This document shows, piece by piece, positions 11,317 through 28,696 of a stretch of 64,000 bases of DNA. A model generated the notes under the pieces. That model saw only the letters and a program-made list of their open reading frames with translations, had not been told where the DNA came from and searched no databases. Position numbers and translations under genes: made by a program. This DNA comes from an uncultured Rhodospirillaceae bacterium (GTDB lineage Bacteria > Pseudomonadota > Alphaproteobacteria > SP197). Where the stretch lies: positions 23,792 to 87,791 of the forward strand of contig CAZGYG010000003.1 in NCBI GenBank assembly GCA_964530335.1. The letters run 5' to 3'. The first letter of the stretch is position 1, and each line of letters starts with the position of its first letter.

Positions 11317-11321
11317 GCGTC

Positions 11322-12150: not shown

Positions 12151-12852
12151 TCACGGCATGTCGAACACCAGGATCTCGGACTCGGCGCCGGTGCCGGCGA
12201 TGGTGAGCGCGCCTTCGGCCGTGATCGCCGCGCCGTCGCCCTGGCCGAGTTCCTGGCCATCGAGCGTGACCGCGCCCAGCGCGACCTGCACCCAGGCGCG
12301 GCGACCCTGCGCGAGCTCGTGGCGCACAGACTGGCCTTGCGCGAGCACGGCCGCCAGGATCGTGGCGTCCTGGTGCACGGCGACCGCGGCGCCCGAGCCG
12401 GCCGGCCCGGCGATCGGCGCGAGCCGCCCGGCGAGAGTCTCGCGCGCCACCGCCTGCTGCTCGTAGCCGGGCGCGAGCCCGGCGCGGTCGGGCACGATCC
12501 AGATCTGCAGCAGGTGGACCGGCTGGGTCCGGGAATCGTTCATCTCGCTGTGCTGGATGCCGGTGCCGGCGCTCATGCGCTGCACGTCGCCCGGCCGGAT
12601 GACCGAGCCGTTGCCCAGGCTGTCCTTGTGGCCGAGCGCGCCCTCGAGCACCCAGGTCACGATCTCCATGTCGCGGTGGCCGTGGGGCGGGAAGCCGGCG
12701 CCGGGCGCCACCCAATCCTCGTTGATGACGCGCAGCGCCCCGAACCCCATGTGGTCCGGGTCGAAATACTCGGCGAACGAGAACGTGTGCCGGCTGTCGA
12801 GCCAATCGAACTTCGACCGGCCACGCTCCACCGCCAGGCGAAGCGCGATCAC
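12151..12852 (-). CDS. Pirin-family cupin protein (YhhW-like)
   Basis: VIALRLAVERGRSKFDWLDSRHTFSFAEYFDPDHMGFGALRVINED...MSAGTGIQHSE matches the pirin N-terminal signature. GTG start forming a GTGA overlap with the upstream permease stop. Confidence 0.85.
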   Translation of the reverse strand: MIALRLAVERGRSKFDWLDSRHTFSFAEYFDPDHMGFGALRVINEDWVAPGAGFPPHGHRDMEIVTWVLEGALGHKDSLGNGSVIRPGDVQRMSAGTGIQHSEMNDSRTQPVHLLQIWIVPDRAGLAPGYEQQAVARETLAGRLAPIAGPAGSGAAVAVHQDATILAAVLAQGQSVRHELAQGRRAWVQVALGAVTLDGQELGQGDGAAITAEGALTIAGTGAESEILVFDMP

Positions 12853-14021: not shown

Positions 14022-15016
14022 CAGCGCGAGGCTCCGCCGCCGAGCCGGATGCGCGGGTCGAGAAACGCGAGCGCGATGTCGGACAGCAGCACGCCGATCA
14101 CGGTCAGGAACGCGAGGCACATCAGGAACGACCCGGCCAGGTACATGTCCTGGGTGCGCAGCGCGTTCAGCAGCATCGGCCCCGTGGTCGGCAGCGACAG
14201 CACGACCGAGACGATCGCCGCGCCCGAGATGACCTGGGGCAGCAGGTTGCCGATGTCGGCGATGAACGGGTTGAGCGCCATGCGCAGCGGGTACTTAAAG
14301 AGCGCGCGCAAGGGCGGCATCCCCTTGGCCCGCGCCGTGACCACATACTGGCGTTGCAGCTCGTCGAGCAGATTGGCGCGCAAGCGCCGGATCATGCCCG
14401 CGGTGCCCGAGGTGCCGATGACGATGACCGGTACCCACAGGTGCTCGAGGATCGAGACGAACTTGCCCCAGCTCCACGACGCTTCCAGGTACTCCGGGTC
14501 CATCAGCCCGCCGATCGAGGTGCCGAACCACACGTTCGCGACGTAGAGCAGGACCAGCGCGAACAGGAAATTGGGCGTGGCGAGCCCGAGGAATCCGACC
14601 AGGGTGAGCGCGTAGTCGCCGGGCGAATACTGGTGGGTGGCCGAATAGACGCCGATCGGGAACGACACCAGGTAGGTGAACAGGATGGTGGCGAACGAGA
14701 CGATTAAGGTGAGCACGAGCTGCCCGCCGATGACGTCCGCCGCCGGCACGCCGAACTCGAACGACTGGCCGAAGTCGCCCTGCAGGAGCCCGCCGAGCCA
14801 GACGACGTACTGGCGCCACATGGGCTGGTCGAGCCCGTACTCCTCGCGCAGGAACTCGATCTTCTCGTCGGCCGCCTCGCCCTGGGCCTCGAGCTCGGCC
14901 ATATAGGTCGTCAGGTAGTCGCCCGGCGGCAACTGGATGATGATGAAGGTGATCAGGCTGATGCCGATCAGCGTCGGCACCATGAGCAGGATGCGCTGGG
15001 CGAGGTAGGCCAGCAT
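14021..15016 (-). CDS. yejB: ABC transporter permease, YejB/OppB-like
   Basis: MLAYLAQRILLMVPTLIGISLITFIIIQLPPGDY N-terminus, typical of DppB/OppB-family permeases. Confidence 0.8.
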   Translation of the reverse strand: MLAYLAQRILLMVPTLIGISLITFIIIQLPPGDYLTTYMAELEAQGEAADEKIEFLREEYGLDQPMWRQYVVWLGGLLQGDFGQSFEFGVPAADVIGGQLVLTLIVSFATILFTYLVSFPIGVYSATHQYSPGDYALTLVGFLGLATPNFLFALVLLYVANVWFGTSIGGLMDPEYLEASWSWGKFVSILEHLWVPVIVIGTSGTAGMIRRLRANLLDELQRQYVVTARAKGMPPLRALFKYPLRMALNPFIADIGNLLPQVISGAAIVSVVLSLPTTGPMLLNALRTQDMYLAGSFLMCLAFLTVIGVLLSDIALAFLDPRIRLGGGASR

Positions 15017-15019
15017 CGC

Positions 15020-16942
15020 TCAGCCGCCCGCCTCGCCGCTCGGCGTGAACCAGAAGGTGTCGGGCCGGTAGACGCCGAATTGGGCGCCGGGCTCCCAGTT
15101 GAAGATCGCCTCCTCGGGCACGTTGTTGAGCCGGTCGCTGACCACCACCGGCTGCAGCGTGCCGGCGATCAGGCCGATGGTGAACACCTGTGCGGCGTGG
15201 ATCGCCAGCATGCGGCGCCAGATCGCTTCGCGCGCCTCGGTCGTGGCGGCGCGCCGCCAGGCCTCGTTCAGCGTCATCAGCTCCTCGGCCGCGGGCAGGT
15301 CCGGCGCCTCGCCCGACTGGCCCCCGGTCTCGAAGTACTGGCCCCACATCGGCCATTGCAACGCCTGCTGGGTGGTCGGCGCGAACTCGAACGGGCTCAT
15401 GTCGGCGGTCGGCACGCCGTTCTCGTAGCCCGACCACACCGCCACGAGGGTCTGCCCGGAGAACACCCGGTTGCGCAGGACCTCGCGCTGCATCGGCCGC
15501 GAGTAGAGCTTGATCCCGGCCGCCAGCCAGGTGTCGTGGACCAGCTCGAGCACGTCGGTCTGCTCGGTGTCCTCGCCGGCGGTCTCGACCACGATCTCGA
15601 GCGGCCGGCCGTCGGGCATCAGGCGCACGCCCCGGTCGTCGCGCTCGGTCAGGCCGATCGCGTCGAGCAGCCGGTTGGCCTTCTCGAGGTCGAACACGGC
15701 CCAGGCCTTGGCGTAGGTTTCGCGGTAGAGCGGGCTTTGCTTGAGCACGGTGTTGGTCACCTCCTGGGCAAGCCCGTAGTAGATGACCTGGTTGATCTCG
15801 TGCCGGTCGATGGCGAGCGAGAGCGCGCGGCGGAAGCGCACGTCGCGCAGCAGCGCGCGCCAGGTCGGATCGGCGACGTTGAGGTTGGGGAACAACGCGA
15901 GCTGGGCGCCGACCGCGGTGCGCCACAGCCGCACGCGGTAGCCGTTGCGCTCCTCGCCCTCCTTGAGGAACGTGTAGTTGTTGAAGTTGAGGCCGCGCGC
16001 CTGCAACGTGACCTCGCCGGCGCCGGTCTTGGCCGGGATCAGCTTGCTGTCGACGACATCGAGCACGACCCGGTCGATGTAGGGCAACTGGCGGCCATCG
16101 GCGTCGATCCGATGGTAGTAGGGGTTGCGCACCGCGACGAAGCGCGTCGCCGGCGTCGCGTTGGTGATCTGCCACGGCTGCAACGTCGGCAGGTCCGGGT
16201 TGTCGCAGCGGTACAGGCTGTCGAGGCTGTTGTAGAGCGACGCCCAGTTGCTCTTGCCTTCCGCCTGGGCCCGGGCGTCGAGCGCCGCCCGATCGGCGTA
16301 GCCGGCGTGGAACGCCTTCAGGTAGTGGGCCGGGGCGTAGATGTCGAGCGGCGTGGTCGCTGCGATCGCCGGCAGGAAGAACGGGTTGGGCTCGGTCCAG
16401 GCGTAGCGCACGGTGAGCTCGTCGGGGAACTCGACCGTCGGGGGCTCGCCCGCGACGATCAACACCCGGGGCGGCCCGCTCGAGCTGATCTCGGGGTCGT
16501 TCGCCACGTCCTGCCACCAGAAGCGGAAGTCCTCGGCCGTGAACGGCTGGCCGTCGGACCACTTGTGGCCCGGGCGCAGGTGCAGGGTGAAGACGCGGCC
16601 GCCCTCGACGTCGACGCGGGCCACGAGGTCCGGCACCAGGTTGAAATCCACGTCGTAGCCGACCAGCCGGGCGTAGCCGTAGACCGTGAGCAGCCGTACG
16701 TCCCGCTCGCGGTGGATCATGGTGTGCAGATCGCCGCCGTAGGCGCCCGGCGTCCGTCCCGGCCCGGGCATGACGACCAGCGGCTCGGCGGGCACGCGCT
16801 GCTCGACCGGCGGCAGGTCGCCGCGCAGCACCGCGTCGGCGAAATACGGCGGTTCGACCGGCGCCGGCGACTGAGCCGTCGCCGCCGTCGCCGCCAAGGC
16901 GAGTGCGAACGTGGCGGCGAGCGCGGAGATGACCGGGCGCAC
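15020..16942 (-). CDS. yejA: Periplasmic family-5 substrate-binding protein, extended YejA type (640 aa) with signal peptide
   Basis: N-terminal signal MRPVISALAATFALALAATAATAQS; size and architecture match YejA-type SBPs. Confidence 0.8.
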   Translation of the reverse strand: MRPVISALAATFALALAATAATAQSPAPVEPPYFADAVLRGDLPPVEQRVPAEPLVVMPGPGRTPGAYGGDLHTMIHRERDVRLLTVYGYARLVGYDVDFNLVPDLVARVDVEGGRVFTLHLRPGHKWSDGQPFTAEDFRFWWQDVANDPEISSSGPPRVLIVAGEPPTVEFPDELTVRYAWTEPNPFFLPAIAATTPLDIYAPAHYLKAFHAGYADRAALDARAQAEGKSNWASLYNSLDSLYRCDNPDLPTLQPWQITNATPATRFVAVRNPYYHRIDADGRQLPYIDRVVLDVVDSKLIPAKTGAGEVTLQARGLNFNNYTFLKEGEERNGYRVRLWRTAVGAQLALFPNLNVADPTWRALLRDVRFRRALSLAIDRHEINQVIYYGLAQEVTNTVLKQSPLYRETYAKAWAVFDLEKANRLLDAIGLTERDDRGVRLMPDGRPLEIVVETAGEDTEQTDVLELVHDTWLAAGIKLYSRPMQREVLRNRVFSGQTLVAVWSGYENGVPTADMSPFEFAPTTQQALQWPMWGQYFETGGQSGEAPDLPAAEELMTLNEAWRRAATTEAREAIWRRMLAIHAAQVFTIGLIAGTLQPVVVSDRLNNVPEEAIFNWEPGAQFGVYRPDTFWFTPSGEAGG

Positions 16943-16945
16943 GGC

Positions 16946-18819
<1,874 letters not shown>

Positions 18820-18823
<4 letters not shown>

Positions 18824-19329
18824 GCCGGCTCCCGGGCGCCCGCGACCTCGGCGGCGAGGTGGCCGAGCGCTCCCAGGTTGGCGCGGGTCGCCTCGCCGAG
18901 CCGGACGCCGTTGGCGCGCGCCGCCGCGAACGCGGCGCCGACGATGGCTTCGAACCCGGTGACCGCGGAATCGACGGTGACCGCCCGCCCTCGGCGCGCC
19001 CGCACGCGGAGCTGCATCCAGCCTTGGGAGCGGTCGCGGCGGGTCGGGAAGAACGACAGCTTCAAGCGGTCGAGCTCGCGCCAGTCCACGCGCGCGGGCC
19101 ACGGCCCGCGGACCACGAGCGTGTCCTCGTCGCAGCCGATCGCGGTGGCGTGGCGCGCCGCCGTGCGCGCGCCGAACAGGGCGAACAGCAGGGCGATCGC
19201 GCCCAGCGTCCACGCCACCGCCGGCGCCGCCGGCACCAGAACGAGCGGCCCGGCGCTGAGCGACAGCCCCGCCGCCGCGCGGACATAATCCCCGGCGAGC
19301 GCGGCGAAGGGATAGCGGTGCTGGGTCAC
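18820..19329 (-). CDS. Small predicted membrane protein (about 169 aa), translationally coupled on both sides
   Basis: Hydrophobic segment [37 protein letters not shown] overlap with the deacetylase stop and ATGA overlap with the yejF start. Confidence 0.45.
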
Positions 19330-20081
19330 CGCGCCAGCCCGAAGGCTTCGCTCGCCGCGATCCAGCGCGCGCGCGGATGGTCGCCGATCAGCGCGGCGAA
19401 GCGTTCGACGAAGCGCCACGACGCCTCGTCGTGGGCGGCGTGATGGGTCAGCAGGCCGACCGGCTCGGCGGCGTCCCGTTCGCCCGCCCGGCAGGCGCCC
19501 AGGTGGGTCACGGCGGCGGAAAGCACCGCCGCGTCACCGATGAAGCCGCGGCCCTGGTGCCAGGCGATGAGGTCGAGGTGGGCGTTGACCACGGCGAGCC
19601 CGTCGCGCACCGGCCGGGCGCGCGGCCCGAAACCCGACAGCCCCCGGTACCCGGCCTGGGCGAGCCGCCCGATCAGCGCCTCGGCGATGCGGTTCCACGG
19701 CGGCACCAGCACCGGGAGCGCGCGCAACCGCTCGGTCAACAGGGCAAGCCCGCGCTTCAGCGCGGCAAGCGCGCGCTCGGGCGCGAACTCGCCGCCGAGC
19801 TCGATCCGCTTGGCGCCTTCGGGCGCGTGGTTGGCGTGGTCCCAGCCGTGTTGCAGCACCTCGATGCCGGTCTCGGCGAGCAGCGCGGCACCGGCGTCGT
19901 CCAGGCGCGCCGGGACCGCGGCGACCGCCAGGGGAATGGCGAGCGCACGCCGCAGCGCGACCAGGCGTTCAAGCGCCGGCGTCGCCCCCCCGGCGTCGTC
20001 GTCGCGCCACCAGAAGCGCGACTCGAGCCCGGCGTCCGCGCGCCGGTCGAGCTCGTCACTGAGCGCGCGCCACGTCGGCAT
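19326..20081 (-). CDS. Polysaccharide deacetylase family protein (NodB/CE4-like)
   Basis: FWWRDDD motif, then [10 protein letters not shown]; start at [13 protein letters not shown]... Confidence 0.65.
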
Positions 20082-21213
20082 GGCCCGATCCCGCCCAGCG
20101 TTCGATGAGTACGGCGCTGCGCTCCGCGCCCGCCAGATCGACGGCACCCGCGGGCGGGCGGGGCAGGACGGCGACGCGCGCCACCAATTCCCCCAGCGCC
20201 ACCGGCGCGAGATCGGTTGCGGCGATGACATGGACGAGCCCCATTTCCGCCAAACGTCCGGCCCGCGCGGCCTGCTCGGTCTGCCCTGGGGCCGAAAAAG
20301 GCACGACAACCGCCCTCGCCCGCACCGCCAGCACATCGGTCATCGTATTATACCCGGCTTGCGAAACCGAGACAGCGCAATTCGCCAGGAGTTGGCGGAA
20401 ATCCGGCCGATTCGACTCGACCGTGACGTTCGCGCCCGCGCCCTGCGCGAGCCGGTCGCGATCCTGGACGAGCCCCGGCCCGACAAGAAGGCGCCAGCGC
20501 CGCGCCGGGTCGAGCGCCGCGGCACCGAGCGCCGCCGCCATCAGCGCCGCGCCGACCGCGCCACCGCCGGCGGAGACGACGATCTCGCCCCGGCCGGGGC
20601 CGTCAGGGGCAGCGGCTTCCGGCGAATGCGCCACGTAGCCGGTGTACAACGTGCGTTCGGCGAACGAGGCGGCCAAGGGAAAGCTCGCCTCCAAGTCGAT
20701 GACGCGCGGATCGCCGTGCACGAGCAGGGCGTCGAGCTCGGCCCGCGCCGCGGCGGCCATGGCGGCCTCGCGTTCCGGGTCGTTCCGCGTCACCAGGATG
20801 TCGCGCACCGACCCGACTACGACCGCCGGCGCGCCGCGCGCGGCCGCGATCACGGCCTGGAACTCCGCCGCCAGCTTGCGCCGGCCGAACGGGTAGTGCT
20901 CGACCACGACGATCCGTGGCCTCCTCGCGCGGAACGCGTCGAGCACGGCGGCGTGGCGTGCCGCCAGCAGGCTCGCGCCGACCGGATGCCCGTCGCCATC
21001 GACCAGGCGGCGAAAGCTCGCGTCCTCGGCCCGCACCGGCGGCAGTTGAACGACGTCGACGCCGTCAGACGCCATGCCGGATACCGGCAGGCCGCCGCTG
21101 ACCAGGGTGGTCGCGACGCCGCGCCGGGCCAGCGCCCGCGCGATCAGCAGGGCCCGCGCGAGATGGCCGGTCCCCAGGAGATGGCTGACCAGGATCAGGG
21201 CGCGCCGCGTCAC
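20056..21213 (-). CDS. Glycosyltransferase, COG4671/GT28-related (paralog of 24145..25371)
   Basis: N-terminal LILVSHLLGTGHLARALLIARAL motif, paralogous to the LIYSHDTFGLGHLRRCRTIAHAL gene upstream. GTG start in GTGA overlap with the histidine-phosphatase stop. Confidence 0.65.
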   Translation of the reverse strand: MTRRALILVSHLLGTGHLARALLIARALARRGVATTLVSGGLPVSGMASDGVDVVQLPPVRAEDASFRRLVDGDGHPVGASLLAARHAAVLDAFRARRPRIVVVEHYPFGRRKLAAEFQAVIAAARGAPAVVVGSVRDILVTRNDPEREAAMAAAARAELDALLVHGDPRVIDLEASFPLAASFAERTLYTGYVAHSPEAAAPDGPGRGEIVVSAGGGAVGAALMAAALGAAALDPARRWRLLVGPGLVQDRDRLAQGAGANVTVESNRPDFRQLLANCAVSVSQAGYNTMTDVLAVRARAVVVPFSAPGQTEQAARAGRLAEMGLVHVIAATDLAPVALGELVARVAVLPRPPAGAVDLAGAERSAVLIERWAGSGHADVARAQ

Positions 21214-21794
21214 GGCGCGGCGAGGGGTACGTTGAGCCGCACGACCTTGGGCTGGCCGTCGGGGGCGAGCTCGAACACCTGGGCGCGGCCGAAGTCGATC
21301 TTGACCGGTGGCGCGCCGAGGAAATCCCAGCCCGTGGCCAGCCCGACCACGGCGCGGATGACGCCCTTGTGACTGACCGCGGCGATCGCGCCGCCGTGGG
21401 CGATCTCGGCCAGCCAGGGGCGGATTCGCGCCTGCACCTGGCGCGGGCTTTCCCCGCCGGGCGGGCGGAAATCGAGCCCGCGCGCCTCGTTGGCGGCCAG
21501 GCCATCGGGGTCCTCGAGGCCGAGCTCCGCTAGGGTGCGCCCTTCCCACTGGCCCCAGTCCATCTCGATCAGGCGCGGCTCGATGCCGGCCGCGACGCCG
21601 AGGATGGCCGCCGTGTCGCGCGCGCGGCTGAGCGGACTGGTGTACCAGCGCGCGGCCCGGGCCTCCTCGGGCAGGCGCCAGGTCGCGACCTCGGCCCGGC
21701 CGGCTTCGCTCAGCGGCACGTCGAGCCGGCCCTTCAGCCGGCGCACGGCCGTGGCCTGGGTGCGGCCATGACGCAGCAGGACCAGATGGGTCAT
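21210..21794 (-). CDS. Histidine phosphatase (phosphoglycerate-mutase-like) family protein
   Basis: MTHLVLLRHGRT catalytic RHG motif; 194 aa; ATGA overlap with the upstream GT stop. Confidence 0.8.
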   Translation of the reverse strand: MTHLVLLRHGRTQATAVRRLKGRLDVPLSEAGRAEVATWRLPEEARAARWYTSPLSRARDTAAILGVAAGIEPRLIEMDWGQWEGRTLAELGLEDPDGLAANEARGLDFRPPGGESPRQVQARIRPWLAEIAHGGAIAAVSHKGVIRAVVGLATGWDFLGAPPVKIDFGRAQVFELAPDGQPKVVRLNVPLAAP

Positions 21795-22903
21795 CGCACC
21801 GCGATGGCGATGGCGCGCTCGAGTGCGCGGTGTGCCGCGTCGGGTCCGTGGCGGCGCGCGACCCAAGACTTGGCGCGGCGGCCCAAGGCGTGGCGCGTGT
21901 CCGCGTCGACCAGCAAACGGCGCACGGCGGCGGCGAACGCAACGTCGTCGCCGGGCGGCACCAGGATGCCGGATGAGCCGTCGCGCACGACCGTCCGCAC
22001 CCCTGGCTCGGCGCCCGCGATCACGGGCAGGCCGGCCGCCTGCGCTTCCAGGTACGCCATGCCGTAGGCTTCTCCCACGCCGGGCCAGACGAACACATCG
22101 GCCGAGGCGTAATACGCCGGCAGGGACGTTGGGCGCAACGCGCCGGCCCAGCGCACCCGCGCGCCGAGCGGGCCGAGCGCCCGCGAGCACGCCGCGGCCG
22201 CGGCGCCGTCGCCGACGACGATGAGCTGCCATGGGACATCGCGGACCAGGCCCAACGCCCGGCCGAGCCGTTGGTACGACCGGGTCTTGTCGCCCGGACG
22301 CATCATGGCGACGGTCAGCAGCCAGGGCACGCGCGCGTCCAGCCCGTGCCGCCAGGCGAGCCGCGCCCGCCGGCCTCCCGCCCTGGCGAACGGCCGGGGA
22401 TCGAGGAACGGCGGCAGCCGCACGATCCGCCGCGCCGGCACGATGCCACGGATTCCGGGCATGTCGTCGTCGCTCATCACCAGCACCGCGTCGGCGGCCC
22501 GGATCGCGGCCAGCGCGCCCTGGTAGCCGATCGCCCATGGTCCGGCCCGCCGTTTCGGCGCGTGCGAGGCCTCGGCGATCACGTAGGGGATGCCGAGCGC
22601 GCCGGCGACCCTAGGCCCGATCCAGTCGGGCGCCTTGTGATGGACGTGGTAGGTGAACCACAGGTCCGGGCGCCGGCTATGGCGCCACCTGGCGATCAGG
22701 CGATCGGCCACGCGCTCGGCCCGGACGCGGATCGCGGCCTGAACCTCGGCGTCGCCCGCGCCGTCGAAGGCACGCAGCCGCGTCGCCACCGCCACGTCGT
22801 GGCCGGCGGCGAGTGCCCCCAGCAGCGCCCGCGCCATGCGCCTGTCGCCCGAGGGCGTCGGATGATCGGGCGGCTTCATCGGCGCGTAGAAGGCGATGCG
22901 CAC
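21791..22903 (-). CDS. Glycosyltransferase family 1 (GT4-type)
   Basis: GT1 C-terminal EAYGMAYLEAQAAGLPVIA motif. Confidence 0.8.
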   Translation of the reverse strand: MRIAFYAPMKPPDHPTPSGDRRMARALLGALAAGHDVAVATRLRAFDGAGDAEVQAAIRVRAERVADRLIARWRHSRRPDLWFTYHVHHKAPDWIGPRVAGALGIPYVIAEASHAPKRRAGPWAIGYQGALAAIRAADAVLVMSDDDMPGIRGIVPARRIVRLPPFLDPRPFARAGGRRARLAWRHGLDARVPWLLTVAMMRPGDKTRSYQRLGRALGLVRDVPWQLIVVGDGAAAAACSRALGPLGARVRWAGALRPTSLPAYYASADVFVWPGVGEAYGMAYLEAQAAGLPVIAGAEPGVRTVVRDGSSGILVPPGDDVAFAAAVRRLLVDADTRHALGRRAKSWVARRHGPDAAHRALERAIAIAVR

Positions 22904-22907
22904 GGGA

Positions 22908-24134
22908 TCAGCCGGCGATGCCGAACTTCGCCGCCAGGAGGTCGATGCCCGCCGCCATGGCGAAGTCGCGCTCGACCCGTGCCCGGCCGGCCCGGCCCAG
23001 ACGCGCCCGCGCCCCTGGGTCCGCGATCAGGCGGGCGATCGCCTGGGCAATCGCCGCCGGGTCGCCGGGCGGCGCCAGCACGCCGTTGACGCCGTCCTCG
23101 ACCAGCTCGGGCACCGCCGCGATGCGGGTGGCGATGACGGGCAATTCCTGGCTCTGGGCCTCGACCAGCACGTTGGGCAGGCCGTCGCGGTCGCCGTCGG
23201 CGGCCACGACCGGGGTCAGGACGAACAGGTCGGCGGCGCGATAGGCGTCGAGCACGCGCTCCTGCGGCTGGGCGCCCTGCCACGCGATGCGCCCGTCGAG
23301 CCCGAGGCGATGGGCCTGGCGGGCGAGGCGCGGGCCGAGCTCGCCGCCGCCGATGTGAACGAGGCGCCAGGCCAGGTTGGACGGCACGCGCGCGAGCGCG
23401 GCGAGCAGGTCGTCGAGCCCCTTCTTCGGCACCGCGCGCGCGACGCACAGCAGCACCACCGGATCCCCTGCATCGCCGCCGTCGCGCATCGGGCGCGCGG
23501 CTTGGGGCGGCGTGAAGCGCGCGAGATCGAGCCCGTGATAGGCCAAGGCGACCCGGCCGGGCGGCGCCACCGGCTCGAGCGCGGCCAGCCCCGCGCGGCT
23601 GCACGTCACCGCGAACCGGCATTCGGCCAGCTTCTCGCGCTGCTCCCAAGCCGGCGTGGTCCAGATGTCCTTGGCGTGGGCCGACACCGACCATGGCAGC
23701 CCGGTCATCAGCGCGGCGTAGCGCACGACCGAGGCCGGAGTGTGCAGGAAGTGGGCGTGCAGCCAGGCGACCGCGCCGGCCTGTTCCACCGCCAGCACGC
23801 ACGCCTGGCCGAACCGGCGCACCCGGTTGGGGCTCGGGTCGCGCGCGAGGTCGCCGAGCCAGGCGCGCCAGGCACCCCTGTAGCCGGGCAGCCGGCGCGC
23901 CCGCCACCACGCGCGCGCGACCCGGAGCGGCGCGTGCCACAGGTACTCGGGCAGGTACGCGATGGGCGCCCGGATCGCCCGATGCACCGGATGGACGGCG
24001 CGGTCGGTGGGCCGGCGCAGCGAGACGATGCGAATGTCGAGGCCGCGGCGCTCCAGCGCCAGGATTTCCTGGGCGATGAAGGACTCCGACAGCCGGGGAT
24101 AGCCCTTGAGGACGAAGGCGACCGGACCGTTCAC
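22908..24134 (-). CDS. Glycosyltransferase family 1 (WcaL-like)
   Basis: GLPNVLVEAQSQELPVIATR GT1 motif; 408 aa. Confidence 0.8.
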   Translation of the reverse strand: MNGPVAFVLKGYPRLSESFIAQEILALERRGLDIRIVSLRRPTDRAVHPVHRAIRAPIAYLPEYLWHAPLRVARAWWRARRLPGYRGAWRAWLGDLARDPSPNRVRRFGQACVLAVEQAGAVAWLHAHFLHTPASVVRYAALMTGLPWSVSAHAKDIWTTPAWEQREKLAECRFAVTCSRAGLAALEPVAPPGRVALAYHGLDLARFTPPQAARPMRDGGDAGDPVVLLCVARAVPKKGLDDLLAALARVPSNLAWRLVHIGGGELGPRLARQAHRLGLDGRIAWQGAQPQERVLDAYRAADLFVLTPVVAADGDRDGLPNVLVEAQSQELPVIATRIAAVPELVEDGVNGVLAPPGDPAAIAQAIARLIADPGARARLGRAGRARVERDFAMAAGIDLLAAKFGIAG

Positions 24135-24144
24135 CGGGCGGCTG

Positions 24145-25371
24145 TCATCCCGATCGTGCCAGCGCGAGCCCGCGCGATCGGAGGGGATCGAGCCCGAGCT
24201 CGACCAGGCGATTGACGTTCTCGAGGCCGTCGAGCAGCCCGGGGATGACGACCGAGGACGGCAGCGCCTGCTGCGGCAACTGGCGCAGCGCGGTCACCAT
24301 GCGCTGGGGGTCGCGCTTGCCGTCGTCGTCGAGCATGGTCACCAGGCCCAGCTCGGCGGCCCGCCGGGTGCGGATGTACTGCTCCATGCGCGGCACCTTG
24401 CGCGGCACGATCAAGGCCCGCTTATCGAGCGACACGATCTCGCAGAACGTATTGTAGCCGCCCATGGCGACGACGCCGGCGGCATGCGACATCAGCGACT
24501 CCATGTAGGCGTCGAAGGTGATCGCCGTGACCGTGCGCAGTCGGGCGACGCGGCGCTGGAAATCGGCCACGGTCTCGGGCTGCATGAATGGGCCGAACAC
24601 GACCAGCGCCGGCCACGGCGGGCGCGCGGGCGATTCGTAGGCCCCGAGCACCCAGTCGACCAGCGCTTCGCCGTCGCCGCCGCCGCCCGGCGTGACCAGC
24701 AGGTACGGCCGGTCGATGTCGATCGGCGCGCGCACGCTGGGCATCGTGTCGGACACCGTGCGCCGCAGATAGCCGGTGAACACGGTCTTGCGGCGCACCG
24801 ACTTGGGCAGGTTGATGTCGGCGATCGGATCCCAGATCTGGGGCAGGCCGTAGACCCAGATCTCGTCGTAGAGGTCGCGCAGCGCCGGCCCGGCGCCCTT
24901 GCGCTTCCATTCGGGACCGAGGTGCGCCGACTCGTCGAGCACGTCGCGCAGGCCGAGCACGAGGCGCGTGCCGCGCGCCTTGAGCGATTCGAGCGTCTCC
25001 TTGACCTCGCCGCGCAGGCCCAGCGGCTCCTTGTCGACGATGAACAGGTCCGGGTCGAAGATCTCCGCCGTGTGGCGGATGATCGACGCCCGCATGGCCA
25101 GCGTCTCCTCGATGTCGATGTGCAGGTTGAGCGAGGTGTATTCGCCGTTGCGCAGCTTGATGACGCCCGGGACGCGGACGAAATCGACCCGGGCGCGGAA
25201 GTCGAAGCTGCCGATGATCGGCGATCCCGACAGGATCAGGACCGACACGTCGCGAAAGTGCTCGACCAGGGCGTGCGCAATGGTGCGGCAGCGCCTGAGG
25301 TGGCCGAGGCCGAAGGTGTCGTGACTGTAGATGAGGACGCGTGGTCCCATCCCAGCGGCTCGCACAACCAT
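24145..25371 (-). CDS. Glycosyltransferase, COG4671/GT28-related
   Basis: Start at ATG (MVVRAAGMGPRVLIYSHDTFGLGHL...) with a GGGGAGGGGAGG Shine-Dalgarno 7 nt upstream. The track begins 10 codons earlier at a GTG. Confidence 0.7.
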   Translation of the reverse strand: MVVRAAGMGPRVLIYSHDTFGLGHLRRCRTIAHALVEHFRDVSVLILSGSPIIGSFDFRARVDFVRVPGVIKLRNGEYTSLNLHIDIEETLAMRASIIRHTAEIFDPDLFIVDKEPLGLRGEVKETLESLKARGTRLVLGLRDVLDESAHLGPEWKRKGAGPALRDLYDEIWVYGLPQIWDPIADINLPKSVRRKTVFTGYLRRTVSDTMPSVRAPIDIDRPYLLVTPGGGGDGEALVDWVLGAYESPARPPWPALVVFGPFMQPETVADFQRRVARLRTVTAITFDAYMESLMSHAAGVVAMGGYNTFCEIVSLDKRALIVPRKVPRMEQYIRTRRAAELGLVTMLDDDGKRDPQRMVTALRQLPQQALPSSVVIPGLLDGLENVNRLVELGLDPLRSRGLALARSG

Positions 25372-25544: not shown

Positions 25545-28208
25545 ATGGAACCAAGTATCCTTCGGTATATTTTCCGATTTTCAAAACGACAGCAAATACA
25601 AATTGTTATCATAACGGCAATCTCCCTGCCGTTCTATTATGCGTCCCTCGATGTTCCCAAGCTCATCGTAAATAATGCGTTAGACGGTGGCCCACAGGAT
25701 TTCCCAAAACCCTTCTCGGTGCTTGGGTATAACCTGATTGGTCTCGAGCAGGTGCCGCTGCTTTATGCGTTCTGCGCCCTGTTCCTGGTTCTCGTTTTGA
25801 TCAACGGCGCCTTCAAGTACTACATCAACGTCCAGAAGGGCATCCTGGGCGAGCGGATGCTGCGCCGGCTGCGCTTCCAGCTGCTCGCGCGCGTGCTGCG
25901 CTTCCCGCTGCCGCACTTCCGCCGGGTCAGTTCGGGCGAGATCATCCCGATGATCACCTCCGAGGTCGAGCCGCTCGGTGGCTACATCGGCGATGCCATC
26001 GTCCAGCCGCTCTACCAGGGCGGGCTGCTGCTGACCGCGATCTTCTTCATCTTCGCCCAGGACCTCTACATGGGCATCGCGGCCATCGCGCTCTACCCCG
26101 TGCAGGGCTATCTCATCCCCAAGCTGCAGCGCCGCGTCAACCTGCTCGGCAAGGAACGGGTACGCGAGGTGCGCAAGCTCTCCGAGCGCATCGCCGAGGC
26201 GACGGCGGTCGCCCAAGAGGTCCATGGCCACGACGCGGCGCGCTACGAGCTCGCGGACTTCGCCGTGCGCTTCGGGCGCATCTACCACATCCGCAACCGC
26301 ATCTTCATCCTCAAGTTCCTCGCCAAGTTCCTCAACAACTTCATCTCCCAATTGACGCCGTTCCTGTTCTTCTCGATCGGCGGCTACTTCGTCATCCAGG
26401 GCGGGCTCTCGCTCGGCGCGCTGGTCGCCGTGCTCGCCGCCTACAAGGACCTGCCAGGCCCGTGGAAGGAGCTGCTGGACTACTACCAGATCAAGGAGGA
26501 CTCCCGGATCAAGTACGAGCAGGTGGTCAGCCAGTTCGATCCGCCGGGCATGCGCGACGAGGCGCTCGTCGGCGGCGACCGCGACGATCCGCCGCCGCTC
26601 GCCGGTGCCCTCGAGGTCGCCAACCTCGGCCTCGCCGATGACGGCGACCAGATCCTCGAGAACGTCAGCCTCAAGGCGCCGCTCGGCTCGCGGCTCGCCC
26701 TGGTCGGGGACTCGGCCAGCGGCAAGACCGAGCTCACGCTGCTGCTGGCCCGGCTGCTCGATCCGTCCAAGGGTCGCGTCGTCGTGGGCGGCGTCGACCT
26801 CAAGGACGCGCCCGAGGCCCTGACCGGGCGGCGCATCGCCTACGTCGGCCCGACCACCAGCCTGCTGTCGGCGCCCCTCTTCGACAACCTGACCTACGGG
26901 CTCAAGCACCGCCCGCTCAAGGAGGTCGAGTACCTGGCGCCGACCGCGGTCCAGCAGCGCCGCCGCGACATCGTCGAGGCGGAGAAATCGGGCAACGCGC
27001 CCGACGACATCAACGCCGATTGGATCGATTACGCGGCGGCGGGCGTGACGCCCGAACGGCTGGTCGGCAGCATTGTCGCTGCCCTCGACGTCGCCGACAT
27101 GACCGGCGACGTCTACCAGTACGGGCTGCGCGGTACGCTCGACCCGGTGCTGCGCCCGGACGCGGCCAGGCGGGTGCTCGACGCCCGCGCCGCTCTGCCC
27201 GACCTGCTGGCCGATGCCGGGGTCGCCGACCTGGTCGAACCGTTCCACCCCGAACGCTACAACTCGAACGCCACCCTCGCCGAGAACCTGCTGTTCGGCA
27301 CGCCGCGCGGCGATACGTTCGCCTTCGATCGGCTGGCCGGCAACGCTTACGTGCGCAAGGTGCTCGACGACACCGGCCTGACCGGCGATCTGCTCGTCAT
27401 GGGCTACGAGGTGGCGCAGACGATGATCGAGCTGTTCGCCGATCTGCCGCCCGAGCACGAGTACTTCGCCCAGTTCAGCTTCATCCGGCTCGAGGACCTG
27501 CCGGACTTCCAGGCGATCGTGCGCAAGGCCGAGCCCGAACACCTGGACCGGCTTGCCGAGGGCGATCGGCTCAAGCTGCTGTCGCTGCCGTTCCAGCTCG
27601 TGCCGGCGCGCCACCGGCTGGGCAATATCGATGACGCGATGCGCGAACGGCTGCTGGTCGCGCGCCGCGCCTTCGCCGCCGGGCTGTCGGCCGCCGATCG
27701 CGGCGCCGTCGCCCTGTTCGACCCCGGCGCTTACAACGCGCACGCCTCGCTGCAGGACAACATCCTGTTCGGCAAGCAGGTCTACGGCAAGGCGCACGCC
27801 GCCCAGAAGATCGGCGATCTGATCTCGGATCTGGTCGCGACGTTCGGCCTGCGCGAGATCATCATCGAGGCGGGGCTTGACTATCCGGCCGGCATCGGCG
27901 GCACGCGCCTGACCCAGAGCCAGCGCCAGAAGCTGGCCATCGCGCGCGCTGTGCTCAAGCGCCCGGACGTGCTCATCCTCGGCGAGGCGACGGCGACGCT
28001 CGACGGCCCGGCCCAGGCGAACATCATGGCCAACTTGTTCAAGGCCTTCGAAGGGCGCACCTTGATCTGGGCGCTGCACCGGGCCAGCCTGGCCAAGGCG
28101 TTCGACCAGATCGTCGTGCTCAAGGGCGGCCGGGTCGTCCAGCACGGCACGTACGTGGAGCTTGCCGCCGCGCCCGGCGTCCTCGCCGACCTGGTGGCGG
28201 CCGAATAG
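25545..28208 (+). CDS. Atypical ABC exporter (N-terminal 6-TM domain plus ATPase domain carrying a roughly 350-aa insertion and degenerate motifs)
   Basis: Walker A GDSASGKTEL; signature region LTQSQRQKLAIARAVL (degenerate LSGGQ); Walker B VLILGEATATLD (Asp replaced by Gly); H-loop ALHR. First about 150 nt are markedly AT-richer than the surroundings. Confidence 0.8.
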   Translation: MEPSILRYIFRFSKRQQIQIVIITAISLPFYYASLDVPKLIVNNALDGGPQDFPKPFSVLGYNLIGLEQVPLLYAFCALFLVLVLINGAFKYYINVQKGILGERMLRRLRFQLLARVLRFPLPHFRRVSSGEIIPMITSEVEPLGGYIGDAIVQPLYQGGLLLTAIFFIFAQDLYMGIAAIALYPVQGYLIPKLQRRVNLLGKERVREVRKLSERIAEATAVAQEVHGHDAARYELADFAVRFGRIYHIRNRIFILKFLAKFLNNFISQLTPFLFFSIGGYFVIQGGLSLGALVAVLAAYKDLPGPWKELLDYYQIKEDSRIKYEQVVSQFDPPGMRDEALVGGDRDDPPPLAGALEVANLGLADDGDQILENVSLKAPLGSRLALVGDSASGKTELTLLLARLLDPSKGRVVVGGVDLKDAPEALTGRRIAYVGPTTSLLSAPLFDNLTYGLKHRPLKEVEYLAPTAVQQRRRDIVEAEKSGNAPDDINADWIDYAAAGVTPERLVGSIVAALDVADMTGDVYQYGLRGTLDPVLRPDAARRVLDARAALPDLLADAGVADLVEPFHPERYNSNATLAENLLFGTPRGDTFAFDRLAGNAYVRKVLDDTGLTGDLLVMGYEVAQTMIELFADLPPEHEYFAQFSFIRLEDLPDFQAIVRKAEPEHLDRLAEGDRLKLLSLPFQLVPARHRLGNIDDAMRERLLVARRAFAAGLSAADRGAVALFDPGAYNAHASLQDNILFGKQVYGKAHAAQKIGDLISDLVATFGLREIIIEAGLDYPAGIGGTRLTQSQRQKLAIARAVLKRPDVLILGEATATLDGPAQANIMANLFKAFEGRTLIWALHRASLAKAFDQIVVLKGGRVVQHGTYVELAAAPGVLADLVAAE

Positions 28209-28237
28209 CCGCGACAGAACGTGAAGGAGACCTGACC

Positions 28238-28696
28238 ATGAGCTTGCACGAGGACGTCGACGCGCTGCGGGCGATCCCGCTGTTCGCCAAGGTCGAGTCG
28301 AGCAAGCTCAAGCTGCTCGCCTTCACGAGCGAACGGTTGTCGTTCAACGCGGACCAGGAGCTGTTCCACCAGGGCGATCCCGGCGACGCGCTCTACATCA
28401 TCCTGGACGGCGAGGCCGAGGTGCTGGTCGACACGCCGGGCGGGCCGATCCACGTGGCGACCGTGGGCCGGCACGGCTTCTTCGGCGACATCGCCATCCT
28501 GTGCGACGTGCCGCGCACCGCCACGGTCAAGGCGACCCAGCCCCTGACCACGCTCCGCATCAGCAAGGATCTGTTCTTCCAGCTTGTCACCCAGTTCCCG
28601 CAGATCTCGATCGAGATCATGCGCGAGCTCGCGCACAGGCTGGAACGGACTACCCGCGCCTACCGCGAAGCCGTCGCCAAGGCCCAGGCGCGTTAG
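28238..28696 (+). CDS. Cyclic-nucleotide-binding domain protein (stand-alone cNMP-binding/CAP effector domain)
   Basis: FGDIAILCDVPRTATVKA cNMP-binding beta-roll motif; 152 aa; 29 nt downstream of the ABC gene. Confidence 0.85.
   Translation: MSLHEDVDALRAIPLFAKVESSKLKLLAFTSERLSFNADQELFHQGDPGDALYIILDGEAEVLVDTPGGPIHVATVGRHGFFGDIAILCDVPRTATVKATQPLTTLRISKDLFFQLVTQFPQISIEIMRELAHRLERTTRAYREAVAKAQAR

What the first reader, a model, noticed from the sequence alone, without database searches (positions are those of the whole stretch)
25545..28696. Unusual 887-aa ABC exporter with an expanded, degenerate ATPase domain, paired with a stand-alone cNMP-binding protein
After a normal Walker A (GDSASGKTEL) the NBD carries a roughly 350-aa insertion before the signature region. 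Within it the helical-subdomain motif recurs three times (LFDNLTYG, LAENLLFGTP, LQDNILFGKQ). The signature is LTQSQ instead of LSGGQ, and the Walker B aspartate is replaced by Gly (VLILGEATATLD). As a homodimer both ATP sites would be non-canonical, which implies regulated or ATP-binding-only behaviour. The first about 150 nt of the gene are conspicuously AT-rich relative to the ~70% GC surroundings. A 152-aa cNMP-binding-domain protein follows 29 nt downstream, suggesting cAMP/cGMP control of the transporter. It is divergent from the glycosyltransferase operon and so may export its product.
Basis: seen in the sequence. Interest (0 to 1): 0.7.

Follow-up and report, generated by a model that had tools for sequence, protein, structure and literature searches.

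The report
Cyclic-nucleotide-partnered ABC exporter with degenerate ATPase
This gene pair belongs to a large, uncharacterised alphaproteobacterial family: a membrane exporter whose ATP-burning domain is expanded by about 270 residues and has partly lost its catalytic residues, always encoded next to or fused with a cAMP/cGMP-binding domain, which suggests a transporter controlled by cyclic nucleotides rather than by ATP hydrolysis alone.

Summary
ORF 25545-28208(+) encodes an 887-aa ABCB-type half-transporter. Its nucleotide-binding domain is split by a roughly 270-300-aa helical insertion, not 350 aa. It has LTQSQ for LSGGQ and Gly for the Walker B Asp. A 152-aa cNMP-binding protein follows 29 nt downstream.

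It is not an artefact. More than 580 GTDB species and 854 50%-identity clusters carry the same insertion, and the insertion is at least as conserved as the ATPase core.

Degeneracy is family-wide. Walker B Asp is absent from all 118 close homologs. Rhizobial orthologs on S. meliloti pSymB and R. etli p42e also lack the Walker A Lys, catalytic Glu and H-loop His, yet evolve at dN/dS about 0.04.

The cNMP-binding gene is adjacent in 80 of 82 loci and fused to the C-terminus in 17 of 60 distant relatives. Cyclases and MBL-fold hydrolases (Apyc1-like in two loci) often flank it.

The glycosyltransferase operon and an Opp-like importer are co-conserved from this window to rhizobia.

My best reading is a cNMP-gated ABC-fold exporter for a glycoconjugate. 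No biochemistry exists for the family.

The parts
25545..28208 (+). 887-aa ABC exporter-like half-transporter: six-helix type IV transmembrane domain plus an expanded, degenerate NBD
   Evidence: ORF. Pfam ABC_membrane and a split ABC_tran match. Full-length homologs at 50-84% identity. AF2 model pLDDT 84.8, pTM 0.77. Foldseek top hits are P-gp, TmrAB, MsbA and Atm1.
25545..25694 (+). AT-rich synonymous-codon ramp over the first ~50 codons, which encode TM helix 1
   Evidence: GC3 is 0.44 against 0.93-0.96 for the rest of the gene. It is the lowest of 44 genes in the window. Only the closest homolog loci share it; 5 of 82 show a drop above 0.2.
25545..26534 (+). Transmembrane domain (aa 1-330), six long helices
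   Evidence: Pfam PF00664 at aa 72-297. AF2 secondary structure. This is the most conserved region of the protein, mean column conservation 0.75.
26706..26729 (+). Walker A, GDSASGKT (aa 388-395)
   Evidence: Sequence. The family consensus is G-x-x-G-S-G-K-[E/D]-[E/D]; Thr at this position is rare, 3 of 118.
26835..26900 (+). Copy 1 of the repeated element (aa 431-452): the Q-loop strand plus LFDNLTYG, with the Q-loop Gln replaced by Pro436
   Evidence: Aligned to the P-gp Q-loop region. hhalign against copies 2 and 3 gives E about 1e-4.
26907..27707 (+). Helical insertion of about 270 aa (aa 455-721) within the NBD helical subdomain
27234..27299 (+). Copy 2 of the repeated element (aa 564-585), VEPFHPERYNSNATLAENLLFG; nearly invariant in the family
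   Evidence: hhalign against copy 3: E 1e-9. Column statistics. Conserved even in the most degenerate relatives.
27708..27773 (+). Copy 3 of the repeated element (aa 722-743), VALFDPGAYNAHASLQDNILFG; it starts the canonical helical subdomain
   Evidence: NCBIfam profiles resume alignment at aa 721-735.
27909..27923 (+). Degenerate signature motif, LTQSQ (aa 789-793)
   Evidence: Aligned to LSGGQ of P-gp. The family consensus is L-S-[APTS]-A-Q.
27969..27986 (+). Walker B, VLILGE (aa 809-814): Asp replaced by Gly813, catalytic Glu814 retained
   Evidence: Alignment. Family statistics at the Asp position: S88, N15, A12, C2, G1, and never Asp. The Glu is kept in 110 of 118.
28077..28079 (+). H-loop His845, retained
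   Evidence: His in 107 of 118 close homologs. Absent in rhizobial orthologs and in most distant relatives.
28238..28696 (+). 152-aa stand-alone cyclic-nucleotide-binding (CNB) protein with no DNA-binding domain
   Evidence: PF00027 at 70.5 bits. Best PDB relatives are PKG and PKA-R CNB domains, E 1e-23 to 1e-25. Adjacent to the ABC gene in 80 of 82 loci. Fused to the ABC protein in relatives.
28478..28528 (+). Phosphate-binding cassette, FFGDIAILCDVPRTATV (aa 81-97)
   Evidence: Arg93 is invariant in 80 of 80 stand-alone and 16 of 16 fused copies. The Gly-[Glu/Asp] and [Thr/Ser]-Ala positions are conserved.
18862..25371 (-). Divergent seven-gene operon: GT28-like (24145-25371), GT4 (22908-24134), GT4 (21791-22903), histidine phosphatase (21213-21794), GT28_C (20095-21213), polysaccharide-deacetylase-family protein (19338-20075), small unknown protein (18862-19329)
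   Evidence: Pfam and NCBIfam matches. Orthologs in L001. Synteny in about 72-76 of 82 loci. Orthologs in rhizobial clusters at 40-55% identity.
12849..18829 (-). Opp/Dpp-like ABC importer continuing the minus-strand operon: fused double ATPase, family-5 binding protein and two permeases
   Evidence: Pfam. 51-70% identical to the importers that flank the ABC/CNB module in R. etli, S. meliloti and L092.
10504..12143 (+). MBL-fold hydrolase (10504-11316) and Methyltransf_24 methyltransferase (11322-12143), possibly peripheral members of the cluster
   Evidence: Pfam. The MBL protein is 46% identical to the MBL gene that follows the CNB gene in Mesorhizobium.

Best explanation
The pair is a cyclic-nucleotide-controlled, ABC-exporter-fold membrane module.

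The ABC protein. The 887-aa protein most likely forms a homodimer with an ABCB/MsbA-type transmembrane domain. Its NBD helical subdomain was enlarged by internal duplication. The Q-loop strand plus the 'xxENLLFG' helix now occurs three times, which adds about 270 conserved, mostly helical residues.

The ATP sites. In this window's clade the NBD keeps the Walker A Lys, catalytic Glu and H-loop His. It lacks the Walker B Asp, the Q-loop Gln and the LSGGQ glycines. I infer that it still binds ATP but hydrolyses it slowly or not at all.

The CNB protein. It binds cAMP or cGMP through a canonical phosphate-binding cassette. I infer that it docks on the NBD. It would act as the C-terminal regulatory domain that it literally is in fused relatives, and would switch the exporter between closed and open states.

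The cargo. I infer that the cargo is the glycoconjugate, probably an oligosaccharide or glycolipid carrying N-acetyl sugars, made by the divergent glycosyltransferase/deacetylase operon. The co-conserved Opp-like importer may take it or a derivative back up.

What is shown: the sequence anatomy, the internal duplication, family-wide degeneracy, purifying selection, and the adjacency, fusion and cyclase context.

What is inferred: nucleotide binding, docking, gating, the homodimer, and the substrate.
For: - Conserved family, not an artefact: full-length homologs; at least 581 GTDB species; 854 representative clusters carry the insertion; the insertion is as conserved as the core.
- Degenerate sites. 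The wider family loses the Walker A Lys, catalytic Glu and H-loop His, while the ENLLFG and DNxLFG motifs persist.
- Rhizobial orthologs lack all four catalytic residues yet have dN/dS 0.03-0.044 in every region. The conserved function therefore cannot require ATP hydrolysis.
- CNB link: adjacent in 80 of 82 loci; fused C-terminally in 9 of 9 long relatives tested and in 17 of 60 full-length representatives; two fusions add a GGDEF domain; the PBC Arg is invariant; the closest solved relatives are PKA and PKG CNB domains.
- cNMP circuitry nearby: class III cyclases flank the module in L084, L022, L069, L061, L062, L085, L092, Mesorhizobium, R. etli and S. meliloti. Apyc1-like MBL hydrolases flank it in L091 and L092.
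- Cargo link: the GT operon is syntenic in about 72-76 of 82 loci and orthologous in rhizobia.
- No second transmembrane-domain paralog nearby.
Against: - No experiment exists on any member. No paper was found in five full-text searches.
- In this window's clade the Walker A Lys (112/118), catalytic Glu (110/118) and H-loop His (107/118) are under selection. That argues for retained catalysis here.
- Most clade members carry Glu or Asp right after the Walker A Lys together with Ser at Walker B. This could be a compensatory way of holding Mg2+.
- No cyclase was found in this 64-kb window.
- The GT operon is absent from several distant loci (L084, L091, L055, L072). The cargo link may therefore be clade-specific.
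- CNB-like domains can bind other ligands; the HetC domain binds ppGpp in vitro (PMC10986499).
- The glycosyltransferases all look soluble and no polyprenyl-phosphate priming enzyme is present. The nature of the product is therefore open.
Confidence: 0.5

Rival explanations
1. It is a conventional ATP-driven exporter. The ATP sites are unusual but catalytically competent. Mg2+ is held by the Walker A Thr (or by Glu/Asp in most relatives) and by other ligands in place of the Walker B Asp. The CNB protein only tunes the rate. The insertion is a substrate- or partner-binding accessory.
For: Walker A Lys, catalytic Glu and H-loop His are conserved in the window's clade. The co-variation pattern pairs an acidic residue after the Walker A Lys with Ser, Asn or Ala at Walker B in 95 of 118 homologs. 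One distant relative (P0246) keeps GKST and ILILDEA, so the ancestor was a normal ATPase.
Against: Walker B Asp is never present. The Q-loop Gln and the signature glycines are also missing. From general knowledge of P-gp and MalK mutants, not tested here, Walker B Asp substitutions abolish Mg-ATP hydrolysis. Rhizobial orthologs of the same cluster have no catalytic residues yet are strongly constrained, so the shared function works without hydrolysis.
Confidence: 0.25
2. It is a non-transporting signalling or regulatory subunit, like SUR. The ABC fold serves as a cNMP-responsive membrane scaffold that regulates the neighbouring glycosyltransferases or the Opp-like importer, and moves no cargo itself.
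For: Catalytic residues are completely lost in rhizobia under purifying selection. Some relatives carry a fused GGDEF domain. An Opp-like importer is consistently co-located, including in loci without glycosyltransferases such as L092.
Against: The transmembrane domain is the most conserved part of the protein. It retains the full six-helix exporter architecture with high model confidence, which is more than a membrane anchor would need. There is no evidence of contact with other components.
Confidence: 0.12
3. It is a cyclic-nucleotide exporter. The CNB domain senses cytoplasmic cAMP or cGMP and opens the ABC-fold pore to expel it, which limits or broadcasts the signal made by the adjacent cyclases.
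For: Cyclases lie immediately next to the module in many loci. In L084 the fusion gene overlaps the cyclase gene. MBL-fold hydrolases, Apyc1-like in L091 and L092, also co-occur. From memory, not tested: Rhodospirillum centenum excretes cGMP during encystment, and human ABCC4 and ABCC5 export cNMPs.
Against: The strong synteny with a glycosyltransferase/deacetylase operon is not explained. No cyclase was found in this window. Nothing in the transmembrane domain was tested for nucleotide binding.
Confidence: 0.08
4. It is an artefact or a decaying gene: a frameshift fusion of two genes, or a pseudogene with a junk insertion.
For: Only the superficial oddity of a split ABC_tran match.
Against: There are hundreds of collinear full-length homologs with the same architecture. 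The insertion contains invariant residues. Its AF2 confidence is high. dN/dS is 0.039 across the insertion in Sinorhizobium. GC3 of 0.93 or higher is maintained through the whole ORF after the ramp.
Confidence: 0.01

Closest known systems
Type IV (ABCB-like) homodimeric and heterodimeric ABC exporters: MsbA, TmrAB, TM287/288, P-glycoprotein
   Same: Six-helix transmembrane domain (PF00664) followed by an NBD. Best sequence and fold matches. Walker A, catalytic Glu, D-loop and H-loop are alignable.
   Different: A 270-300-aa duplicated insertion sits in the helical subdomain. There is no Walker B Asp, Q-loop Gln or LSGGQ. All NCBIfam scores fall far below cutoffs (MsbA 209 against 602). As a homodimer, both ATP sites would be degenerate. 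Known degenerate-site exporters keep one consensus site.
CFTR and SUR (ABCC7, ABCC8/9)
   Different: CFTR is regulated by PKA phosphorylation of an R domain, not by a directly bound CNB domain. It retains one competent ATP site. It is not homologous beyond the generic ABC fold.
HetC of Nostoc PCC 7120 and the cyc_nuc_ocin (TIGR03896) bacteriocin-export-associated proteins
   Same: An ABC exporter combined with a cNMP-binding-type domain that is required for function (PMC10986499). TIGR03896 is a weak hit of the CNB protein.
   Different: In HetC the domain is N-terminal, accompanies a C39 peptidase, and binds ppGpp rather than cAMP in vitro. The HetC ATPase is canonical and essential. Here the CNB is C-terminal or separate, has a canonical PKA-type PBC, and the ATPase is degenerate.
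Accessory regulators bound to ABC NBDs: MlaB (STAS) on MlaF, and C-terminal regulatory domains of MalK, MetN, ModC and OpuA
   Same: A small separate or C-terminally fused ligand-binding domain attached to the NBD modulates transport. The MlaFB abstract is listed. The remainder is from general knowledge.
   Different: Those are importers or lipid-trafficking systems with canonical ATPases. None uses a CNB domain or has an expanded helical subdomain.
ABC ATPases with large insertions between Walker A and the signature motif: UvrA, Rad50/SMC, and the 'arm' of ABCF proteins such as EttA (recalled from memory, not tested here)
   Same: The insertion is placed within or next to the helical (signature) subdomain and is used for partner binding.
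   Different: Those are soluble DNA- or ribosome-binding ATPases. Their insertions are unrelated folds (coiled coils, zinc modules), not duplicated helical-subdomain modules. They retain catalysis.
Prokaryotic cyclic-nucleotide-gated channels SthK and MloK1
   Same: A CNB domain with the same phosphate-binding cassette directly gates a membrane protein. Both are among the PDB relatives of the CNB protein.
   Different: The membrane part is a tetrameric voltage-gated-like K+ channel, not an ABC fold. The CNB is always fused.

Membership tests
ABC exporter, type IV fold (PF00664 + PF00005) | Six-helix ABC_membrane transmembrane domain | tested here: met
   PF00664 scores 60.4 bits against a cutoff of 28, at aa 72-297. 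The AF2 model has six long helices. Foldseek probability is 1.0 to P-gp, TmrAB and MsbA.
ABC exporter, type IV fold (PF00664 + PF00005) | Contiguous ABC_tran NBD | tested here: inconclusive
   PF00005 scores 59.6 bits against a cutoff of 25, but in two stretches separated by about 270 aa.
Catalytically competent ABC ATPase | Walker A, GxxGxGK[ST] | tested here: met
   GDSASGKT. The fourth residue is Ala rather than Gly, but the P-loop pattern GxxxxGK[ST] is kept. Most relatives have GK[ED].
Catalytically competent ABC ATPase | Q-loop glutamine | tested here: not met
   Pro436 aligns to the P-gp Q-loop Gln. Family distribution is P43, A40, Q29.
Catalytically competent ABC ATPase | Signature motif LSGGQ | tested here: not met
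   LTQSQ. Family consensus is L-S-[APTS]-A-Q.
Catalytically competent ABC ATPase | Walker B hhhhD followed by the catalytic Glu | tested here: not met
   VLILGE: the Asp is replaced by Gly813 and Glu814 is present. Asp occurs in 0 of 118 homologs.
Catalytically competent ABC ATPase | H-loop histidine | tested here: met
   His845, present in 107 of 118 homologs. Lost in rhizobial orthologs.
Catalytically competent ABC ATPase | Measured Mg-ATP binding and hydrolysis | not testable with these tools
   Requires purified protein.
MsbA (TIGR02203) and other named exporter equivalogs | Score above the NCBIfam curated cutoff | tested here: not met
   Best scores are MsbA 209.3 against 602 and HepA 174.9 against 725. 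All 25 listed hits (of 176) fall below their cutoffs.
Cyclic-nucleotide-binding domain (PF00027) | Domain score above the gathering threshold | tested here: met
   70.5 bits against 27.5, at aa 34-119.
Cyclic-nucleotide-binding domain (PF00027) | Phosphate-binding cassette, G-[ED]-x-A-x(5-6)-R-[ST]-A, with the ligand-contacting Arg | tested here: met
   FFGDIAILCDVPRTATV. The Arg is present in 80 of 80 stand-alone and 16 of 16 fused copies. The closest solved relatives are PKA-R and PKG CNB domains.
Cyclic-nucleotide-binding domain (PF00027) | Demonstrated cAMP or cGMP binding | not testable with these tools
   Needs ITC or a thermal-shift assay. HetC shows that CNB-like domains can prefer other ligands.
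CRP/FNR transcription factors (the PGAP name given to the S. meliloti ortholog) | C-terminal helix-turn-helix DNA-binding domain | tested here: not met
   The protein is only 152 aa, and Pfam finds nothing beyond PF00027. CRP profiles match only their N-terminal 135-145 positions.

The most novel reading that the evidence does not exclude
This is a widespread family of ABC-exporter-fold proteins that has replaced ATP hydrolysis with cyclic-nucleotide binding as the switch for its conformational cycle. A CNB domain, separate or fused, would dock on a triplicated helical subdomain and gate the transmembrane pathway. That would make these proteins the first cNMP-gated ABC-fold transporters or channels, and a direct, non-transcriptional output for the many orphan adenylate/guanylate cyclases of Alphaproteobacteria, including S. 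meliloti and R. etli.
Probability: 0.3. Interest if true: 0.85.

Novelty: new variant of a known kind. Interest (0 to 1): 0.7.

Why it matters
ABC exporters are defined by ATP-driven alternating access. Known degenerate-site members always keep one working site or have become channels or regulators in eukaryotes, as in CFTR and SUR.

This is a bacterial family present in hundreds of species, including the genetically tractable S. meliloti (pSymB) and R. etli (p42e). In it both sites of a presumed homodimer are non-canonical. Whole lineages have shed every catalytic residue while staying under strong purifying selection. The most conserved features are a duplicated helical-subdomain module and an obligatory cNMP-binding partner.

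If the proposed mechanism holds, three things follow:
- It shows a new way to drive or gate an ABC fold.
- It gives a membrane effector for bacterial cAMP/cGMP signalling beyond CRP-type regulators.
- It points to an unknown exported glycoconjugate, made by a conserved GT/deacetylase operon, that may matter in rhizosphere and marine Alphaproteobacteria.

The family currently has no Pfam, NCBIfam or PDB entry of its own. It is annotated only as 'ABC transporter ATP-binding protein' or 'multidrug transporter'.

Tried and rejected
- Frameshift or pseudogene artefact: rejected.
- Known domain in the insertion: Pfam on the modules alone found nothing even at E = 10. The PDB sequence search covers only aa up to about 468 and from about 774.
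- Full triplication of the helical subdomain: only partly supported. Module B against module C is significant over about 60 aa. Module A against module C (E 0.005, probability 3%) and module A against module B are not. The apparent signature-like 'GLRGxLDP...LEAR' in module A is therefore only suggestive.
- CNB protein as a CRP-type transcription factor: rejected, because it has no HTH domain.
- Heterodimer partner: none found in 82 loci or in the window.
- Cyclase in the window: none found with a locus-derived class III query or by Pfam on neighbouring ORFs. Other parts of the window were not exhaustively scanned.
- Riboswitch, leader RNA, sigma-70 promoter or intrinsic terminator around the genes: none.
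- AT-rich 5' end as a family trait: rejected. Only 5 of 82 loci show it.
- Literature: five full-text searches found no paper on this family. The Clr regulon paper (PMC5498481) does not list these genes.
- S. meliloti 1021 locus tags could not be recovered, because the PLSDB record lacks annotation.
- The afdb50 fold library was unavailable.
- DNA of the closest homolog, P0001, was not retrievable.

Full report
**Observation**

The window contains ORF 25545..28208(+) of 887 aa and ORF 28238..28696(+) of 152 aa.

Pfam finds ABC_membrane at aa 72-297. It also finds an ABC_tran match that stops at profile position 74 (aa 444) and resumes only after about aa 735.

HMMER alignments to P-glycoprotein fix the motif equivalences:
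- GDSASGKT is Walker A.
- Pro436 occupies the Q-loop Gln position.
- LTQSQ replaces LSGGQ.
- VLILGE replaces hhhhDE, so the Asp is Gly813 and Glu814 is kept.
- His845 is the H-loop His.

Profile coordinates put the extra segment at about aa 463-733, which is about 271 aa. The Walker A to signature distance is 401 aa against about 104 in P-gp. The insertion is therefore 270-300 aa, not 350.

The small ORF is a PF00027 cNMP-binding domain at 70.5 bits. It lies 29 nt downstream with an AAGGAG ribosome-binding site.

Upstream, on the other strand, are a GT28-like and two GT4 glycosyltransferases.

**Not an artefact: a large unnamed family**

A protein search returned more than 7,000 hits. The top 120 were almost all full-length proteins of 880-960 aa at 50-84% identity. 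These include Azospirillum, Thalassobaculum, Nisaea, Sneathiella, Oceanibacterium, Stellaceae and Geminicoccaceae.

Searching 1.84 billion representatives with the insertion alone (aa 455-730) gave 854 clusters at E <= 1e-3. In the top 150 the match always lies at about residue 450-750 of ABC exporter-like proteins or fragments of them. No other context appeared.

The insertion contains dozens of invariant residues and is as conserved as the ATPase core. AlphaFold2 with a 65-sequence alignment gives pLDDT 84.8 and pTM 0.77, with 85-95 across the insertion, which is mostly helical.

No NCBIfam model reaches its cutoff; the best is MsbA at 209 against 602. No PDB sequence covers aa ~468-774. No paper on the family was found.

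**The insertion is an internal duplication**

The about 22-residue element 'strand, loop, Y-N-x-x-A-x-x-x-[ED]-N-[LI]-L-F-G' occurs three times: aa 431-452, 564-585 and 722-743.
- Profile-profile comparison gives E 1e-9 (probability 96%) for copy 2 against copy 3, and about 1e-4 for copy 1 against either.
- A global comparison extends the module B to module C similarity over about 60 residues (probability 91%, E 1e-7). Module A against module C is not significant.
- Copy 1 and copy 3 each align to the single Q-loop region of canonical exporters.
- The AF2 model repeats the same strand, short helix, strand unit three times.

Copies 2 and 3 are nearly invariant in the family. They stay conserved even in relatives whose ATPase motifs have decayed. 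They, rather than the ATP-site motifs, are the family's hallmark.

**Degeneracy of the ATP site**

Among 118 close full-length homologs:
- The Walker B Asp is never present (S88, N15, A12, C2, G1).
- The signature is L-S-[APTS]-A-Q.
- The Q-loop position is P, A or Q.
- The Walker A Lys (112), catalytic Glu (110) and H-loop His (107) are kept.

The residue after the Walker A Lys is Glu or Asp in 99 of 118. It is paired with a non-acidic Walker B residue in 95 of 118. This could be a relocated Mg2+ ligand. The query's Thr and Gly combination is unique in the set.

In the wider family the Lys, Glu and His are frequently lost. tblastn against plasmids found 333 records at 38-47% identity in Rhizobium, Sinorhizobium (pSymB), Mesorhizobium, Phyllobacterium, Azospirillum and Ruegeria.

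The R. etli p42e, S. meliloti pSymB and Mesorhizobium orthologs lack the Walker A Lys, Walker B Asp, catalytic Glu and H-loop His. Yet the S. meliloti and S. medicae orthologs have dN/dS 0.030 in the transmembrane domain, 0.041 in the N-terminal NBD part, 0.039 in the insertion and 0.044 in the C-terminal NBD part. The function shared by the family therefore does not depend on ATP hydrolysis.

No second transmembrane-domain paralog lies within 8 kb in 82 loci or anywhere in this window. A homodimer with two non-canonical sites is the parsimonious assumption.

**Link to cyclic nucleotides**

- A homolog of the 152-aa protein lies immediately downstream on the same strand in 80 of 82 loci. One exception has no sequence left after the ABC gene. 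The other has an MBOAT gene instead.
- Among relatives found with the insertion alone, all nine long proteins tested (1026-1206 aa) carry a C-terminal PF00027 domain. Two of them add a GGDEF domain.
- 17 of 60 full-length representatives have such a fusion, homologous to the window's protein at E 1e-15 to 1e-40. The fused form occurs in cultured Thalassospira.
- The phosphate-binding cassette (FFGDIAILCDVPRTATV) is canonical. Its Arg is invariant in 80 of 80 separate and 16 of 16 fused copies.
- The best solved relatives are PKG and PKA regulatory CNB domains (E 1e-23 to 1e-25). CRP-type regulators score lower.
- The protein has no DNA-binding domain.
- Class III cyclase genes flank the module in L084 (overlapping the fusion gene), L022, L069, L061, L062, L085, L092, Mesorhizobium, R. 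etli and S. meliloti.
- Apyc1-like MBL hydrolases flank it in L091 and L092.
- No cyclase was found in this window.

**Wider cluster**

On the minus strand the operon runs in this order:

| Coordinates | Product |
|---|---|
| 24145-25371 | GT28-like |
| 22908-24134 | GT4 |
| 21791-22903 | GT4 |
| 21213-21794 | histidine phosphatase |
| 20095-21213 | GT28_C |
| 19338-20075 | polysaccharide-deacetylase-family protein |
| 18862-19329 | small unknown protein |
| 12849-18829 | Opp/Dpp-like importer |

These assignments rest. A pirin gene (12151-12849, minus strand) follows. An MBL hydrolase and a Methyltransf_24 gene lie beyond it on the plus strand.

The glycosyltransferases are syntenic in about 72-76 of 82 loci. 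Almost every component has an ortholog at 40-58% identity in the rhizobial clusters. There the order is cyclase, importer, GTs, methyltransferase, ABC, CNB. Distant fused relatives keep the importer, cyclases and MBL hydrolase but not always the glycosyltransferases.

**Interpretation**

Shown:
- an ABCB-type exporter fold;
- a helical subdomain enlarged by internal duplication;
- family-wide loss of canonical ATP-site residues, complete in some lineages under purifying selection;
- an obligatory CNB partner that is a C-terminal domain in many relatives;
- cNMP-making enzymes and MBL-fold hydrolases nearby;
- a co-conserved glycosyltransferase, deacetylase and importer cluster.

Inferred:
- the CNB protein binds cAMP or cGMP and docks on the NBD to gate the transmembrane pathway;
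- in this clade ATP is bound with little or no hydrolysis;
- the cargo is the glycoconjugate made by the divergent operon.

Rivals, with my estimated probability for each:
- a still-competent ATP pump with relocated Mg2+ ligands (0.25);
- a SUR-like regulator without cargo (0.12);
- a cNMP exporter (0.08);
- an artefact (0.01).

**Comparison with known systems**

By fold and sequence the closest are MsbA, TmrAB and P-gp. The protein fails the defining catalytic motifs and every curated family cutoff.

By logic it most resembles four systems:
- CFTR and SUR, where a degenerate ABC fold is used for gating or regulation.
- HetC, an ABC exporter that needs a CNB-like domain, which in HetC is N-terminal and binds ppGpp (PMC10986499).
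- MlaFB-type accessory regulators on NBDs.
- CNB-gated channels such as SthK and MloK1.

Large insertions between Walker A and the signature motif are known, from memory, in UvrA, Rad50/SMC and ABCF proteins. I know of none in ABC exporters, and none built from duplicated helical-subdomain modules.

**The AT-rich 5' end**

GC3 is 0.44 for codons 1-50 against 0.93-0.96 afterwards. This is the lowest of 44 genes, and the region is one of two AT-rich spots in 64 kb.

The encoded peptide (TM helix 1) is conserved. The codon ramp is seen only in the closest relatives, 5 of 82 loci. No Rfam family, promoter or terminator match explains it.

The likely explanations are reduced mRNA structure at the start, or slowed early elongation for membrane targeting. 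Neither was tested.

**Verdict**

I rate it a new variant of a known kind: an ABC exporter-fold family with a triplicated Q-loop/helical module, degenerate or dead ATP sites, and an obligate cNMP-binding partner. It is uncharacterised, yet present in model rhizobia, which makes it directly testable.

Noticed in passing
window 25545-25694 (extending to about 25850): There is a synonymous AT-rich codon ramp. GC3 is 0.44 in the first 50 codons of the ABC gene against 0.93-0.96 afterwards. This is the lowest of 44 predicted genes, and rare codons such as ATA, TTA, AAA and CAA are used. The ramp is shared only by the closest homolog loci (L004, L018, L053, L058).
   Followed up: partly
window 55601-55825: This is the only other stretch in the 64-kb window with GC below 55% in 150-nt windows. 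It lies at or beside the 3' end of the minus-strand gene 55741-56700.
   Followed up: no
window 12849-25371 (minus strand) and 10504-12143 (plus strand): An extended conserved supercluster surrounds the ABC/CNB pair. It holds four glycosyltransferases, a histidine phosphatase, a polysaccharide-deacetylase-family protein, a small unknown protein, an Opp/Dpp-like importer, an MBL hydrolase and a Methyltransf_24 gene. Most have 40-58% identical orthologs in the R. etli p42e, S. meliloti pSymB and Mesorhizobium clusters. Its product is unknown.
   Followed up: partly
L088 12001-14715 (R. etli p42e RHE_RS24195); L089 12001-14712 (S. meliloti pSymB); NC_003078.1 841723-844435: Rhizobial orthologs lack the Walker A Lys, Walker B Asp, catalytic Glu and H-loop His. 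They nonetheless show dN/dS of about 0.04 between S. meliloti and S. medicae, which marks a constrained pseudo-ATPase in model organisms.
   Followed up: yes
P0243, P0264 (L086, L092); L084 12171-13451; L091 5192-5971: Some relatives fuse ABC, CNB and GGDEF in one protein. Others are flanked by one or two class III cyclases and by Apyc1-like MBL hydrolases, which gives a complete cNMP make, sense and break module.
   Followed up: partly
family alignment columns for aa 395-396 and 813 of the query: Most close homologs have Glu or Asp directly after the Walker A Lys (GKEE) and Ser at the Walker B Asp position. This is a possible swap of the Mg2+-coordinating acid. The window protein (GKTE with Gly813) is the only Thr/Gly combination in 118 sequences.
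   Followed up: partly
L036 8196-9671: In one Stellaceae MAG the ABC homolog is followed by an MBOAT/AlgI-like O-acyltransferase instead of the CNB gene, and the glycosyltransferase operon is absent.
   Followed up: no
L083 3792-5696: A fused ABC-CNB relative (P0140) is followed by a 634-aa sulfatase-family (LtaS/OpgB-like) protein. This hints at envelope glycan or lipid modification in that lineage.
   Followed up: no
window 5931-8462 (-), 32217-33416 (-), 36776-38326 (+): Three unrelated neighbours were seen: a LonB/LonC-like AAA protease (843 aa), and two CDP-alcohol phosphatidyltransferase-domain proteins with long N-terminal extensions that flank an LptF/LptG gene.
   Followed up: no
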